A DNA stretch of 13,340 bases from a virus (Duplodnaviria; Heunggongvirae; Uroviricota; Caudoviricetes). Position 1 is the first letter of the stretch; every line of letters begins with the position of its first letter. Of this stretch, positions 6,001-12,000 are shown piece after piece. The stretch is from IMG/VR virus record IMGVR_UViG_2531839237_000007. One strand, given 5' to 3'. The position numbers were made by a program.

Positions 6001-9000
6001 TCCGCCATAAGTTCCACCGTGCGCACCGCGTTCCGTAAAAACCACAGATTCGTGGTTTTTCTCCAGCTCAGCCAAGAACTCTTTGGTCTGCTTGTTTCGC
6101 AGGTAGTGGTACGGAGATTCAGATTCACTTTTACCACTGGCTTTCCACATATCAGTGAGGCAGATCATGCCATCTTCACCGATACGGATTGGTTGATTGA
6201 AGAGGGTTAATGATTTCATAGCGTGTACCTACTCTTTGAAATGAACCTTTGCCGCACAGGAAACCAGCCCACCGAGGCTCGCCAGCACTAACTGGTATCC
6301 TCAAAGGCCCATTCCAAAGGGGCAGGTTCGGTGTAAAAAACATGCGTTGCGGTACGCATTTATTGCAAAAAGCCCCGCATCGCGAGGCTCATTAAATGGA
6401 CTTTGTGATTTGCAAAAAAAATTATTTCAGGCATTGCGTCCTGATGTACTCCTGCAGGTAGTTAACCTGCGCGGTTATCTTGTCGATTCCACCTCGGAGA
6501 CGGTAATAATTGAGTTCAGCATCTGCTGTAAGTCCTGGGCTTTCTCCATCGCCCATGCTGCTGGCTCCGGTCGTTGACTTTGCACAGGTGGCGGAGACTT
6601 GCAGGCGCTTACGCCCAGCAGAAACATCAGCACGGAGACTTTCGATAGTCGCATTAGCATCAGCAAGCTCCTTTGTGTATCTGGCGTCAAGTTCTGCTAC
6701 ATCACGTTGCCGCTTCTGCATATCAGCGATGATGGATGTGGCTTTATCGCGCTGCTCTTTGTAGGCGATGGCGTTATCACGGTAATGATTAACAGCCCAT
6801 GACAGGCAGGCGATAATGCAGATAACCAGAGCGGAGATAATAACGGTTACCCTGCTCATTGTTGCCCCCACAAACAGACTTCACGCTCAATCTCGCGGCG
6901 AGTCATCAGCCCTTTCCATTGCTTACCGCCAGCGTATGTCCAGCGCCGTAGCTGATCACATGCGCCTTTGATATCGCCCTGGTTTATTTTGCGAAGAAGC
7001 GTCGATGTTCTGAAATTGCCAGCGCCCACGTTGTAAACGAACGAGTAAAGAGCGCCGCGCGTTGTTTCCGGTATATCGACGTTGATGTACGGGTTAATTT
7101 GTCTGGCGACCGTGGCAAGGTCTTTATTCAGGAGGGCTTTGCATTCTGCTTCGGTATACGTTTTACCGGGCATGATGTCTTTTCCGGTGTGTCCGTGACA
7201 TACAGTCCATACGCCAACGATATCTTTGTATGGTATGTAGCTGACACCTTCCAGACCATCGTTACCACCTCGGACCAGTGATGAGCACAGACGCTATGGC
7301 AGCAGCCCCACCACCAATAGCAGCAGCAACAGCCTTGCGTAATGATGGCGACATTATTCACCTCTCGCAGCCTTACGCTTATCTTCTTTAATCTTGAAAT
7401 AAAGGTTTGTCAGATACGTCAGCAAGCCAAACACCAAGCTACCCGATACGCCTATTGCCACCCACTGGGATGGGGAGACTTTGTCCAGCAACTGCAGTAG
7501 CCAGTATCCCGTCCCCACCGCTGACGTGGTGTATGACACACCTGTTGTGATTTTTTCCATCTGGTACATACCCCGTCTCCCGCAATCCGGAAGCTCACAA
7601 CAATAAAAAAGACCACCGGCACACACCGATGGTCCCTGACGCATGCTTACATCATCATGTCGCTGTCCGGTGTGGGGTCACCGCTATCTGAAGCACTCCC
7701 CTCACCCGCGATGCCTTCCGGCTCCGGAGCTGCCGGTGCGCCCAGCAGTTCATCCAGAATGGCATCCACTTCTGCATCAAGACGCGCTTCCAGGTTATGG
7801 CGAAGTTTCTGTTTCAGTGCGCTCCGGACTTCTTCAGAGCGCAGGACTTCCTTCACTGCTTCAGCAGTGACCAGGGATGTAATTTCTGACATGGGATTTT
7901 CTCGTCGAAAGGTGTGATTAAGAAAGTTGCCGCTAAATGAGCGGCTCTTCGGGTTTGCTTCCGGCTGACTGACTGGCGCTGATTTTCTCAGCGGCCCTTT
8001 TGTCAATCTGTCTGCGCCAGAAGTCACGCATGGCCCTGTACCCACCCGAAAGGAGATACAGCACACAGACCACCGTACAGAAGTACAGCATTAACTGGTT
8101 CAGAAATGTCATAATTTCTTTCCGTTATTGTTGACAATAAGAACTGTTTTCATTTAAAAAACCAGAGCACGAAAGTATCGTTCCTTTATTTTTTCTCCAT
8201 AGGTATTACCACCGCCAGCGTCCATTCCTGTCGCTGGCGGTTTTTTTATCATGCCGCAGTGTCTGTGCTGTTCACTTCCACCGCAATGCTGTCTATCAGT
8301 ACCGGGTAAGTCGCACCTCTGGTAATGTCTGTCACATGCAGTTTATCCGCCGCAAAGGCACTGACCGGTGACTGCGTCAGCGTGAACGGTGTGCCATCCT
8401 GACCATCAATAACCGGCGTCACCTGAAGGCTGTTATTCCCGGCAAAGCGGAAAGCCAGCGTATGCCATTCGTTATCAAATGCGCCAAAGCTTCCCAGTTT
8501 CAGGTTGTTTGTCGCCACTTTCGCATTGTGGTACATCACATTCAGGTCTTTTGCATCTGTCTGGATGTAGAACGCTGCCAGCAGGTTATTCCCCCCGTCT
8601 CCGGTCAGGGCAACGCCCTGTGGCAGTGAAGATACCGGCCAGTAAAACGCCATAACATACTGGTTCGCAGCCAGCGCTCCCGAAACCTTAAAGCGGCAGC
8701 GAATCTGCCCCCCTTTCTGTAACAGAGCCGCACCGTTGCCCGCGGCGTACTCCAGCACCCAGCTGCTTTTACCGGCTTCCTTGGTCAGCTTCACTGCCTT
8801 ACCTCCGGTTCCCTCCGCATCGCTGACCACTTCTGCCCTGCCGCCACTGGCTGACCATCCCTGTACTTTCAGGCTTCCCTCTGACTCGCTGGCAAGGTAA
8901 GAGAGCAGTGTTGTGATGCCTGTGGCTTCTGCACCGGAAGGCGATGACGGGCGCACCTCTGATACTGTCGATGATGCCCCCGCGTTTAGCGCCACTCTTC

Positions 9001-12000
9001 CCGCATGGCGCAAAATCGCCGTTGCCAGACGGTCGGAAATAATCCCACGGCGTGCCCAGGCGCTGAAATGGCTCGCCCTGTCCTGTGACGTCCAGGTGGC
9101 TGAGCTGTCACGCCATTTCGAACCGTAATATCCGATACCCGGAATGTCCGGGTCTTCTTCCGGTTTGTTCGTCGGCACATTCACCCCGTTCTCATCCGTC
9201 ATGAACGGTACGAAATGGATATTTTTTTCCGTTTTGTTTTTGTAGCTGCCGTACACCGTCTGGTAGGTGGCTTCGTTCTTCTGCTTCCAGAAATACGTCG
9301 TGTCCCCGCATATCCAGGGAACACCGTCAGCAGAGCCACCGACGCACTGACCTGCCATATCCGCCAGGTCTGCACGGAATTTATCAACCAGCGCACCAAA
9401 CTGTGCTGCGTGATTTGCCGGCGTACCGCCAAAATCAAATTCCCCCTGCATCCACACCACGGCAAACAGCACATTTTTCGGGTTCTTCTTCAGTGCTGCT
9501 TTTGTTCGACCGATAAGGTCCTTATACAGCGGCTTGTCCACACCCCAGCGGGTTGAATTCTCCGAAGCACCACTCGCGTCACTGTATGTGCCATCAGCTC
9601 CGGTGGTGAACGCTGAACCACCACGACAGCACGGAACCAGCAGAATGCCCGCATTCGCCGGTATAAACGGCAGCAATTTTTTGGCGATATGCAGCCCCTG
9701 CCCCACGGTTCCGTACTGCCCCTTTGACAGGTCCGCTTTCGGATGGTTAAGGCGGCTCATGTCCTGCACATCATGCAGACAATGGTCCGCCGGAATGATG
9801 TCGTTATATTTGCATGCTGCACCGCCCGGTGTCACCGTACTGCGACGCGCCAGTTGCTTAATACGCGGCTCCGGACGGTCATATGTCTCCGGCAGCGGAA
9901 GACCTTCACCATACGACATGCCGTTTGACTGCCCTGCCAGAACCACAACAAAGTAATACTCCGGGGCTCTGGTGGCACTGACAGCCACCGCCTTACCCTC
10001 ATTACCGGTCACCGCCACTGGTGTGGTGACATCACCTTCCGCCGCAATGGCCTGCATCAGGGTGTAAGGCGTGATGGCCACCGGACTGCCAAATGGCTGC
10101 CAGCCCTCCTTCAGTTTTTGTGTCAGTCGTTCAGCAAGGTCTGACGGCGATGCCGCCCTGACCACATCGTAGTGTTTAAATGTCATAACCTCTCCTGCCG
10201 CCAGCAAAGTAATTATCCGGAACACACAATCATGTAACACATAAAAAACACGCTATAAAAAAACCATGTCTCTTATATAACAAAAAAACGCCGACAATTT
10301 AAAATGCCCTCTTATTTTAAACAAAGAATAAACGACACCAGAAAAACAACTCAGCCTGACAGATTGCTTTCAAAACATCACCTATAATTTATGGCATCAT
10401 TTAAAACCTTAAGAAAATAAGGAAAGCAAATGAACTGGATAGTGATTGACACGGTAATCCAGCCAGCATGTGGCATATCATTTTCAGCCATATGGTGTAA
10501 CATAAAATTAATATTATGGTATCAGTCAGATACCTTCCTCCCTCCGGGCTGTATTTTTACACCAACCCGGACAGGCGTAATACTCAATAATAAAGAGCTC
10601 CCCGTCACCATTTACAACGTGGCCCCATTTAATAAAAACGTCTGGAATTTAATTAAAAACAGCCAGGAGTGCCCTGCAAACACAGGAAATATCACAGATA
10701 AGTGTTTTAATCATCGCTGCATTCTGGAAATATGCCCATACGGGCGAAAATAACAGAATCATTCAGATAAAAAGCCCCTCCGGAGAGGGGCTGACACTGC
10801 GTATCTGTATCATCATGTACATGGTGCCGGGTGCCTCCCGGTGAGTTCAGTCCGGTGTCCCTGAACCCGCGTATCTCGCTCCAGGTTGTCGTCAGAGATG
10901 ACACCTTATACACCAGTCGCCCCTCCGCACAGGGGGATTCACCATGCGAATTTTTTTAACGAATGCTCAGTCTGACAGGCAACTGTCAACTGACTGAATT
11001 GTGACACAGATTACACTTGTTACCCACATACCACGAATCAGGTTATGCCTCAGTCATTATTAAACTGCACTTCAGCAAATCCGGAGCCTGATTCACAGGT
11101 ACTGGATTTGATTGTGACAGTCATTCCTGTCAACTGAGCACTTTGCAGTAACGGTTGCAGATTCCAGCGACTGGTCCAGTATTCTTTCCCGTCAACCTTC
11201 ACTGTAAATGTATCATTCTCATTATACTTGGAAAACTCAATTTTACCTTTAGCGCAATCCGCCGCCATTGCATTAACAGAAGCTAATGCAAATAAAACCG
11301 CCATAAACATCTTCTTCATGCTTAACTCCTTTATTTACCCGTTGTATATAAAAACTGTGACTTTCTGTTCAGAAACGCTGCAGCTGTATTACTTTCCCAT
11401 AATGTATTGTTTATTTTTATAACAGGCCTGTCGCCAGTTATCTGACATTCTGGTTGACTCTCTTCATTCACGGCGCGAACAGAACGCGCCCCCTGATGAT
11501 GGCAATTCAGTATAACGGCCACAGTCCCCAGTATCGCTGATATATTATTAAAGGATATTCTCCCCACTCTGACACCATCCTCTCCCCGATACTCCGGAAG
11601 CACATTGCTGATTCGCCCCCAGTTCAGAGTGAGGTCCACGTCTCCCGGCGTCATCGTATACACAGGAGCAGTTTCAGACAGTGCCTGACGAAATTCTCTC
11701 TGTATCTGCCTGAAGCGTAAGGCTTCTGCTGTGACAGTGACAAAACGCAGAACTGCTCTGGATGCATCTCTGGTCATTGTATTACCACTGAACTCCATTA
11801 ACGCCAGATATGATGAAACCAGTGAGTGACGACTGATTTGCATTCCGGAACGTTCCAGCGCTGCGACACGTTGCAGAGTGGTATAACTGCTGTCCGTTGT
11901 CATGGAAACCGTTGTCACACCGGGCACTGATATATGTGTAAAATCTGAAAAACGGTAGAAAGTATTTGTTGCCGTATTAACGAACCCGGCCACATATAAA

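What the first reader, a model, noticed from the sequence alone, without database searches (positions are those of the whole stretch)
8249..10186. Large esterase gene co-transcribed downstream of the toxin (NanS-p-like)
The 645-aa product carries the GQSN motif of the SGNH/SASA sialate O-acetylesterase family in a domain layout that I recall for prophage NanS-p. These enzymes de-O-acetylate mucin-derived sialic acids, so this would be a metabolic fitness moron linked to stx.
Basis: partly seen in the sequence, partly recalled or inferred. Interest (0 to 1): 0.4.

Follow-up and report, generated by a model that had tools for sequence, protein, structure and literature searches.

The report
Known Stx-phage sialate esterase gene nanS-p
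This is an intact copy of nanS-p, the well-known three-domain sialic-acid O-acetylesterase gene found downstream of Shiga toxin genes in Stx phages, so the finding is correct but ordinary.

Summary
A 645-aa ORF runs from ATG 10186 to the stop at 8249-8251, on the MINUS strand, the same strand as stx2AB. It has a good Shine-Dalgarno sequence and the GQSN motif (S87).

Pfam finds DUF1737 (aa 3-50), SASA (aa 80-275) and DUF6645 (aa 489-607). The C-terminal 218 aa are 216/218 identical to the crystal structure 6YP6, named 'NanS-p'. Residues 71-393 match E. coli NanS (3PT5) at E 1e-116, and its catalytic Ser19/His301/Gln18 are conserved as S87/H373/Q86.

The protein is 99.2% identical to Stx2c phage 1717 gp44. 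It is 98% identical over aa 83-645 to 933W L0105/z1466, whose esterase activity has been shown experimentally. The exact sequence is already in NCBI (WP_001687363.1).

Three qualifications apply:
- The gene lies 863 bp from stxB. The spacer holds an STnc100 sRNA with a terminator and an opposite-strand IraM-like ORF, so co-transcription depends on Q antitermination.
- A 2026 cryo-EM preprint shows that the phi24B orthologue decorates the capsid through DUF1737. 'Metabolic moron' is therefore only part of the story.
- Here the capsid-anchor segment (aa 34-82) is only 31% identical to the 933W protein.

Verdict: already known, low interest.

The parts
8249..10186 (-). nanS-p coding sequence, 645 aa plus stop codon
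   Evidence: ORF and translation. Pfam DUF1737 + SASA + DUF6645. 99.2% aa identity to phage 1717 gp44 'SASA family carbohydrate esterase' and 92% to 933W L0105. Exact sequence is WP_001687363.1.
10189..10196 (-). Shine-Dalgarno sequence AGGAGAGG; its AGGAG core (10192-10196) lies 5 nt upstream of the ATG
   Evidence: Read directly from the sequence.
10037..10180 (-). N-terminal DUF1737 domain (aa 3-50). In phi24B gp84 this domain is the capsid-binding module.
   Evidence: Pfam PF08410, E 1e-15. Role in phi24B from bioRxiv 10.64898/2026.04.10.717836.
9941..10087 (-). Variable segment aa 34-82: second half of DUF1737 (anchor loop with Y41) plus the linker. It is only 31% identical to 933W and its loop is 3 aa shorter.
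   Evidence: Alignments and per-segment identities.
9008..9976 (-). SGNH type II / SASA esterase domain (aa 71-393) with Q86, S87 and H373
   Evidence: PDB 3PT5 NanS match, E 1.4e-116. Pfam SASA over aa 80-275. NanS catalytic residues Ser19/His301/Gln18 taken from PMC9063846 and mapped through the alignment; residues checked.
8267..8920 (-). C-terminal lectin-like jelly-roll domain (aa 423-640; DUF6645) with Y510, Y515, Y540 and F611
   Evidence: 216/218 identical to PDB 6YP6 'NanS-p'. Pfam DUF6645, E 8.7e-75. The aromatic residues named in PMC10462455 are present.
10764..10975 (-). STnc100-family sRNA gene between stxB and nanS-p. It ends in an intrinsic terminator (stem 10773-10792 followed by a T-run).
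   Evidence: Rfam RF02076, 158.5 bits against a gathering score of 47. Terminator scan.
10430..10753 (+). Opposite-strand 107-aa ORF, annotated as IraM-like anti-adapter (PmrD family), in the AT-rich spacer
   Evidence: 100% identical to phage 1717 gp43 'anti-adapter protein IraM'. Precomputed PF11183 PmrD hit. No hit in my own Pfam scan. GC 35-40%.
11050..12290 (-). stx2A (12290-11331) and stx2B (11319-11050), Stx2c-like, upstream on the same strand
   Evidence: tblastn against phage 1717 stx2c A and B: 99.7% and 97.8%. Annotation. Pfam RIP and SLT_beta.
7647..8066 (-). DUF826-containing ORF (933Wp43-like) between nanS-p and the holin gene
   Evidence: Pfam DUF826, E 1.5e-39. 80% identical to 1717 gp45.
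7608..7637 (-). Strong terminator-like hairpin (13-bp stem plus T-run) just upstream of holin gene S
   Evidence: Terminator scan and RNA fold.
7354..7569 (-). P21-type holin S: the start of the lysis cassette and the next late gene after nanS-p and the DUF826 ORF
   Evidence: Pfam Phage_holin_2_1. 97% identical to the 1717 holin.

Best explanation
The ORF is nanS-p, the prophage-borne sialate O-acetylesterase of Stx and related lambdoid phages, carried here in an Stx2c-type late region.

The protein has three modules:
- an N-terminal DUF1737 domain, which binds the capsid hexon in phi24B;
- an SGNH type II esterase closely related to chromosomal NanS/YjhS, with nucleophile S87 in GQSN, general base H373 in RASH, and an oxyanion hole that includes Q86;
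- a C-terminal lectin-like jelly-roll domain, thought to hold the enzyme on sialoglycans.

It removes O-acetyl groups from Neu5,9Ac2 and from mucin-bound O-acetylated sialic acids. This makes them usable by sialidases and by the E. coli Nan pathway.

It has no signal peptide or membrane segment. It lies in the pR' late transcription unit, in the order Q, tRNAs, stx2AB, sRNA, nanS-p, DUF826 ORF, S-R-Rz. It is therefore made mainly after prophage induction, by Q-antiterminated read-through. It leaves the cell only at lysis, either as free enzyme or attached to virions.

Shown here: gene integrity, domain architecture, conservation of catalytic and sugar-binding residues, near-identity to characterised proteins, and genomic context. 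Taken from the literature or inferred: enzyme activity, Q-dependent co-transcription, and any virion association of this particular allele.
For: - Domains: Pfam DUF1737, SASA and DUF6645.
- Structures: 216/218 identity to 6YP6 'NanS-p', and E 1e-116 to NanS 3PT5.
- Catalytic residues: Ser19/His301/Gln18 of NanS (PMC9063846) align to S87/H373/Q86.
- Sugar-binding residues: Y510, Y515, Y540 and F611 are conserved.
- Identity: 98.0% over aa 83-645 to 933W L0105/z1466, and 99.2% overall to phage 1717 gp44.
- Published activity: z1466 and other NanS-p alleles have been shown to be active Neu5,9Ac2 esterases, to support growth on Neu5,9Ac2, and to de-O-acetylate bovine submaxillary mucin glycans (review PMC8065619; PMC8319020).
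- Distribution: 310 phage records carry the gene, nearly all Stx phages. Gene order matches phages 1717 and 933W.
- Expression: no sigma-70-like promoter on the minus strand in the spacer, and terminators flank each module. Published induction of nanS-p together with stx by mitomycin C or norfloxacin.
- Localisation: no hydrophobic segment, maximum Kyte-Doolittle (19-residue window) 1.38.
- Virion role: the orthologue phi24B gp84 decorates the capsid.
Against: - No enzyme assay exists for this exact allele.
- The anchor segment of the N-domain (aa 34-82) is only 31% identical to the 933W protein (the phi24B-type anchor), so virion attachment of this allele is untested.
- The head module next to it in the window is of a different MCP type from those this N-domain type usually accompanies.
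- In this contig the endolysin gene carries a +1 frameshift and the portal gene is split. If these are real, both lysis-dependent release and virion assembly would be impaired.
- Infectious Stx2c phage 2851 has a disrupted nanS-p, so the protein is not essential for making particles.
- Co-transcription with stx was not tested here.
Confidence: 0.93

Rival explanations
1. The protein is primarily a virion structural accessory: a capsid-decoration protein. On this view DUF1737 hexamers plug the centre of capsid hexons and display the esterase and lectin domains. Phage particles then bind or modify O-acetylated sialomucin, or O-acetylated bacterial surface glycans. Any benefit to the lysogen would be secondary. 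This overlaps with the best explanation and differs only in what selection mainly acts on.
For: The phi24B cryo-EM and proteomics preprint finds gp84 to be one of the most abundant virion proteins. Residues 2-57 form a hexamer on the central hexons of the T=9 capsid, with Tyr42 acting as a 'tooth', and the protein undergoes autoproteolytic processing.

The gene is a late gene with no signal peptide.

In my sample of 15 (pro)phages, the N-domain anchor type follows head type in 12, even where the esterase body differs by about 44%. Type B N-domains occur with the 12E129-like ClpP-MCP head in 11 of 13 unique records.
Against: - Decoration has been shown only for the 933W/phi24B-type capsid and the type C anchor.
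- The window's type A anchor is 31% identical over aa 34-82 and has a shorter loop.
- Type A occurs with at least three unrelated MCP types: the 1717 HK97-like type, the lambda E/D type in PhiR12_2_star, and the TR01-type ClpP-MCP in this window.
- Phage 2851 is infectious with a split nanS-p.
- The association could simply reflect physical linkage and shared ancestry, because the samples are not independent.
Confidence: 0.35
2. The gene is a pure lysogenic-conversion moron. On this view it has its own expression in the lysogen and is functionally independent of the phage life cycle. It feeds the host on Neu5,9Ac2.
For: NanS-p alleles allow EDL933 and O104:H4 to grow on Neu5,9Ac2. The region between Q and S is the classical moron insertion site (Tree et al. 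2014, PMC4104026). The GC content of nanS-p (52-60%) differs from that of stx (41-48%) and the spacer (35-40%), which suggests separate acquisition. Basal expression is detectable without induction.
Against: - No sigma-70-like promoter was found on the gene's strand in the 863-bp spacer.
- Expression rises 1-2.4 logs on induction.
- The protein has no export signal, so uninduced cells cannot deliver it to extracellular or periplasmic substrate.
- The N-terminal domain is a capsid-binding module in phi24B, which a pure metabolic moron would not need.
Confidence: 0.2
3. The gene is functionally irrelevant here: an intact-looking passenger in a defective, recombinant prophage, or in a chimeric draft contig.
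For: The window is one whole 13,340-bp draft contig. Positions 1-5468 are 99.8% identical to a non-Stx O157 prophage head module, and positions 5179-13298 are 97.9% identical to Stx2c phage 1717. The two share a 290-bp overlap. None of 5,426 complete E. coli genomes carries the join. The endolysin has a +1 frameshift and the portal gene is split.
Against: The nanS-p ORF itself is intact over 1,938 nt with all key residues present, and differs by only 5 aa from the phage 1717 protein. The defects may be draft-sequencing errors. Even a defective prophage can express late genes and lyse using other prophages' functions.
Confidence: 0.1

Closest known systems
NanS-p of Stx2a phage 933W (L0105 / z1466) and phi24B vb_24B_21 / gp84
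   Same: Same length (645 aa) and the same three-domain layout. 98.0% identity over aa 83-645, with identical catalytic motifs (GQSN, RASH) and C-terminal aromatic residues. 216/218 identity to the 6YP6 crystal structure. Same position between stx2B and the holin gene.
   Different: aa 34-82 (capsid-anchor loop and linker) are only 31% identical, with a 3-aa shorter loop (TPYT in place of TAGYGAE). The spacer to stxB is 863 bp, against 486 bp in 933W, and contains an extra IraM-like ORF. The adjoining head module is not the 933W-type (T=9 in phi24B) podovirus head.
Stx2c phage 1717 gp44 and the phage 2851 nanS-p locus
   Same: 99.2% aa identity (5 substitutions) to 1717 gp44. The first 60 aa of the N-domain are identical. 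The flanks are the same: Q, tRNAs, stx2c, STnc100, IraM-like ORF, DUF826 ORF, S-R-Rz, KilA-N.
   Different: From position 5179 leftwards the window carries another prophage's head module (DUF1441 terminase small subunit, GpA-type terminase, ClpP-MCP fusion) in place of the 1717/2851 HNH plus HK97-like head. In phage 2851 the gene is split into two CDS.
Chromosomal E. coli NanS (YjhS), PDB 3PT5
   Same: The SGNH type II esterase core aligns over aa 71-393 at E 1.4e-116. Ser/His/Gln active-site residues are conserved, and both lack the canonical catalytic Asp.
   Different: NanS is a single-domain protein of about 326 aa, described in the literature as part of the chromosomal nan system. The window protein adds DUF1737 and DUF6645 domains and sits in a prophage late operon.

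Membership tests
NanS-p (prophage sialate O-acetylesterase) | SGNH/SASA catalytic domain with GQSN (block I Ser) and the RASH/RSSH His block shared with NanS | tested here: met
   Pfam SASA, E 3.4e-11. 3PT5 alignment, E 1e-116, with S87/H373/Q86 aligned to Ser19/His301/Gln18. RASH motif at aa 370-373.
NanS-p (prophage sialate O-acetylesterase) | N-terminal DUF1737 domain | tested here: met
   PF08410, E 1e-15, aa 3-50.
NanS-p (prophage sialate O-acetylesterase) | C-terminal lectin-like jelly-roll domain (DUF6645) with aromatic residues Y510/Y515/Y540/F611 | tested here: met
   PF20350, E 8.7e-75. 216/218 identical to 6YP6. All four residues present.
NanS-p (prophage sialate O-acetylesterase) | Located in a lambdoid prophage late region, between Q/stx and the holin gene S | tested here: met
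   Gene order in the window matches phages 1717 and 933W.
NanS-p (prophage sialate O-acetylesterase) | Esterase activity on Neu5,9Ac2 and mucin O-acetyl sialic acids | not testable with these tools
   Known only for near-identical alleles (literature read).
phi24B gp84-type capsid-decoration protein | DUF1737 anchor loop with the Tyr42 'tooth', as in phi24B and 933W | tested here: inconclusive
   A Tyr (Y41) is retained, but the loop is 3 aa shorter and aa 34-82 are 31% identical to 933W. The phi24B capsid entries were not among the PDB sequence hits.
phi24B gp84-type capsid-decoration protein | Partner major capsid protein of the 933W/phi24B type (T=9 capsid in phi24B) in the same phage | tested here: not met
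   The window encodes the first 201 aa of a ClpP-protease/MCP fusion that shows no detectable similarity to the 933W MCP.
phi24B gp84-type capsid-decoration protein | Physical presence in virions, with autoproteolytic processing | not testable with these tools
   Needs proteomics or cryo-EM of a phage that carries this N-domain type.
Chromosomal NanS (YjhS) | Single-domain protein of about 326 aa encoded in the chromosomal nan system | tested here: not met
   The window protein has 645 aa and two extra domains, and lies in a prophage late operon. It is a paralogue, not NanS itself.

The most novel reading that the evidence does not exclude
The DUF1737 anchor segment may be an exchangeable cassette that is matched to the capsid type. 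Three anchor types (A, B, C) track three unrelated head modules in 12 of 15 sampled (pro)phages, while the esterase body is shuffled independently. If so, NanS-p would be a general modular capsid-display system across Stx phages of different morphologies, and this window would be a recent recombinant that pairs a type A anchor with a foreign head. The data do not exclude this, but they are confounded by linkage and shared ancestry, and type A already occurs with three head types.
Probability: 0.25. Interest if true: 0.45.

Novelty: already known. Interest (0 to 1): 0.15.

Why it matters
nanS-p is a recognised accessory gene of Stx phages. It links toxin-phage induction to the use of host mucin sialic acids, and it may also be displayed on the capsid. 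This copy adds nothing new on its own. It is one more intact Stx2c-linked allele, already annotated by NCBI as a SASA family carbohydrate esterase.

The only modest added value is comparative. Divergence from the structurally characterised phi24B/933W protein is confined to the capsid-anchor segment. That makes Stx2c-type alleles a natural test of whether capsid decoration extends beyond the 933W-type head.

Tried and rejected
- Plus-strand reading of 8249-10186: full of stop codons, so rejected.
- NCBIfam: no meaningful hit. PHROGs: full-length hit, but the family is 'unknown function'.
- PDB sequence search: returned no phi24B capsid/gp84 N-domain entries, so the anchor could not be compared structurally.
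- Search for a nanS-p-specific sigma-70 promoter on the minus strand of the spacer: none at the scan's threshold. This is weak negative evidence only.
- Strict one-to-one co-variation of N-domain type with MCP type: rejected. PhiR12_2_star (type A with a lambda E/D head), HUN/2013 (type B with the 933W MCP) and the window itself are exceptions. AP005153/NC_004913 (type B) is absent from the near-identical (>=95%) ClpP-MCP matches; I infer it is a 933W-like recombinant, but I did not type its MCP.
- Rfam low-threshold scan of the spacer for AsxR/AgvB-type anti-sRNAs: only STnc100 scored.
- Saile et al. 2016 (PMC5038053) could not be retrieved.
- Structure prediction was not run. Two of the three domains already have near-identical or homologous crystal structures, and the tool would not accept an alignment built from the phage loci.

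
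Full report
OBSERVATION

The interval 8249-10186 is not an ORF on the plus strand. On the minus strand it is exactly a 645-codon ORF, running from ATG 10186 to a stop at 8251-8249. AGGAGAGG lies at 10189-10196, with its AGGAG core 5 nt upstream of the ATG. The mechanical ORF extends to a GTG at 10240. However, homologues and the Pfam DUF1737 model start at MTFKHYD, so the ATG is the real start. The toxin genes lie upstream on the same strand: stxA at 12290-11331 and stxB at 11319-11050.

IDENTITY

- Pfam gives three domains above their gathering thresholds: DUF1737 (aa 3-50, E 1e-15), SASA (aa 80-275, E 3.4e-11) and DUF6645 (aa 489-607, E 8.7e-75).
- Against the PDB, residues 423-640 are 216/218 identical to 6YP6, deposited as 'NanS-p'. 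Residues 71-393 match 3PT5, E. coli NanS/YjhS, at E 1.4e-116.
- NanS uses Ser19 and His301, has Gln18 in its oxyanion hole, and lacks the usual catalytic Asp (PMC9063846). Through the alignment these residues correspond to S87, H373 and Q86, all of which are present.
- The four aromatic residues proposed for sugar binding in the C-terminal domain (Y510, Y515, Y540, F611; PMC10462455) are also present.
- The gene is 99.2-99.5% identical in DNA to Stx2c/Stx2 phages such as 1717, WGPS8 and F349. It occurs in 310 phage records, almost all Stx phages.
- At protein level it differs from phage 1717 gp44 ('SASA family carbohydrate esterase') by 5 residues.
- The exact sequence is already in NCBI as WP_001687363.1 / ELV35957.1. 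Its 90% cluster has 4,397 members.
- The window is the complete 13,340-bp contig AOEB01000115.1 of an E. coli draft assembly.

FUNCTION ACCORDING TO THE LITERATURE

The 933W orthologue z1466/L0105 and several other NanS-p alleles have been shown to be active Neu5,9Ac2 esterases. They allow EHEC to grow on Neu5,9Ac2 and they de-O-acetylate bovine mucin glycans (review PMC8065619; PMC8319020; PMC10462455). The window protein is 98.0% identical to 933W L0105 over aa 83-645. The enzymatic assignment is therefore as safe as a homology argument can be.

TRANSCRIPTIONAL CONTEXT

The gene is not adjacent to stxB. An 863-bp spacer (10187-11049) holds three features:
- an STnc100-family sRNA gene on the same strand (10764-10975; 158.5 bits against a gathering score of 47);
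- the intrinsic terminator that ends it (stem 10773-10792 plus a T-run);
- a 107-aa ORF on the opposite strand (10430-10753), 100% identical to the phage 1717 protein annotated 'anti-adapter IraM'.

The part of the spacer that holds the IraM-like ORF has 35-40% GC. This compares with 52-60% for nanS-p and 41-48% for stx, which suggests separately acquired modules.

Further terminator-like hairpins lie upstream of stxA (12350-12369) and between the DUF826 ORF and holin S (7608-7637). No sigma-70-like promoter was detected on the minus strand in the spacer.

The simplest reading is that nanS-p is reached by terminator-resistant transcription from pR' under Q. This matches the published 1-2.4 log induction by mitomycin C in parallel with stx2a, and the norfloxacin array data. 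Co-transcription is thus plausible and supported by the literature, but it was not shown here.

Convergent sRNAs 3' of stx2B, and PasD/STnc100-type sRNAs directly upstream of the esterase gene, are both known arrangements (PMC4104026; bioRxiv 10.64898/2026.05.13.724894).

BEYOND THE 'MORON' READING

The protein has no signal peptide and no hydrophobic segment, so it can leave the cell only at lysis.

A 2026 preprint on phi24B (bioRxiv 10.64898/2026.04.10.717836) reports several findings about the orthologue gp84:
- it is one of the most abundant virion proteins;
- residues 2-57 (DUF1737) form a hexamer on the central hexons of the T=9 capsid, anchored by Tyr42;
- the protein is processed proteolytically.

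I compared the window protein with 933W L0105. Identity is 88% over aa 1-33, only 31% over aa 34-82, and 98% over aa 83-645. The divergent block is the part that contains the anchor loop and the linker. The loop here is 3 aa shorter (ITPYT in place of STAGYGAE) but keeps a Tyr.

ANCHOR TYPE VERSUS HEAD TYPE

In 15 (pro)phages I found three anchor types.

- Type A is the window's type. Phages 1717, 2851, Stx2_EH2201, Stx1_14744, JLK-2012 and PPyecE_EH1910 all carry it together with the HK97-like protease-MCP of 1717. In three of these six the rest of NanS-p is only about 56% identical to the window protein.
- Type B accompanies a 12E129-like ClpP-MCP fusion head. A full listing found this in 11 of 13 unique phage records. 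One exception (HUN/2013) carries the 933W MCP. The other (AP005153/NC_004913) is absent from the near-identical (>=95%) ClpP-MCP matches; I infer it is a 933W-like recombinant, but its MCP was not typed.
- Type C accompanies the 933W MCP in 4 of 4 records.

The three reference MCPs show no detectable pairwise similarity.

Exceptions exist. PhiR12_2_star pairs type A with a lambda E/D head. HUN/2013 is a described chimeric phage. The window itself pairs type A with a TR01-type ClpP-MCP, the first 201 aa of which are encoded at 603-1.

The pattern fits an anchor that travels with its capsid. It is equally explained by linkage and shared ancestry, and I treat it as a lead only.

Phage 2851, an Stx2c phage described as infectious and transducing, has nanS-p split into two CDS. 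The intact protein is therefore not needed to make particles.

STATE OF THE PROPHAGE

Window positions 1-5468 are 99.8% identical to the head module of a non-Stx O157:H7 prophage that has no nanS-p. Positions 5179-13298 are 97.9% identical to phage 1717. The two share a 290-bp overlap. No complete E. coli genome among 5,426 carries the join.

The endolysin gene (7354-6856) has an extra G near 7271, which shifts the frame ahead of the catalytic residues. The portal gene is split into 1005-2129 and 548-910, as it also is in the complete genomes that carry this head module.

In a draft contig these features could reflect a real defective recombinant prophage. They could also be assembly or sequencing artefacts.

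VERDICT

The finding is a correct identification of a known gene.
- the gene is on the minus strand;
- co-transcription requires read-through of an sRNA terminator, past a convergently oriented ORF;
- the 'metabolic moron' role is now joined by a probable structural role, demonstrated so far only for a different anchor variant.

Novelty: already known. Interest: low.

Noticed in passing
window 10764-10975 (-), terminator stem 10773-10792: A full-length STnc100-family sRNA gene (Rfam RF02076, 158.5 bits) lies directly 3' of stxB and ends in an intrinsic terminator. A 2026 preprint relates STnc100 to the PasD sRNAs that commonly sit upstream of the esterase gene.
   Followed up: partly
window 10430-10753 (+): A 107-aa ORF lies on the opposite strand in the AT-rich (35-40% GC) spacer. 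It is 100% identical to phage 1717 gp43, annotated 'anti-adapter protein IraM' (PmrD family in precomputed hits; no hit in my own Pfam scan). This part of the spacer has no counterpart in the shorter (486-bp) 933W spacer or in Stx2a phage Stx2_14744, and may be a separate moron that is convergent with late transcription.
   Followed up: partly
window 6856-7354 (-), extra G near 7271: The SAR-type endolysin gene has a 1-bp insertion relative to phage 1717 (495/499 identity). This shifts the frame after about 27 codons, ahead of the catalytic Glu/Asp/Thr region. It is either a pseudogene or a draft-sequencing error.
   Followed up: partly
window 5179-5468 (junction); 1-5468 versus 5179-13298: The contig is a hybrid. 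Its left part is 99.8% identical to the head module of a non-Stx O157:H7 prophage, and its right part is 97.9% identical to the Stx2c phage 1717 late region. The two share a 290-bp overlap. The join is absent from 5,426 complete E. coli genomes. It is either a real recombinant prophage or an assembly chimera.
   Followed up: partly
window 548-910 and 1005-2129 (-): The lambda-type portal gene is split into two ORFs of 374 and 120 aa. The same split is annotated in complete O157:H7 genomes with a 100% identical head module, which suggests a conserved defective head module.
   Followed up: no
window 12382-12625 (-): Three tRNA genes lie between Q and stxA: CAT anticodon (annotated ileZ in 933W), Arg-TCG and Arg-TCT. 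A terminator-like hairpin at 12350-12369 sits just before stxA. This is the classical Stx2 phage arrangement.
   Followed up: no
window 7608-7637 (-): A strong hairpin (13-bp stem plus T-run) lies between the DUF826 ORF and holin S. PasA/PasC-type sRNAs are reported at this position in related phages. Rfam gave no hit here.
   Followed up: no
L006 (phage 2851) 1-1938: In Stx2c phage 2851 (described in the literature as infectious), nanS-p is annotated as two CDS: a 280-aa DUF1737-containing fragment and a 318-aa fragment. The intact esterase is therefore dispensable for that phage.
   Followed up: no
window 11050-11319 (-): StxB carries the NENDTF variant, where I recall Stx2a having NEDDTF. 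It is 97.8% identical to 1717 Stx2c B, and StxA is 99.7% identical to 1717 Stx2c A. The toxin is therefore Stx2c-like. The Q gene (12939 to the contig end) is cut off by the contig boundary.
   Followed up: partly
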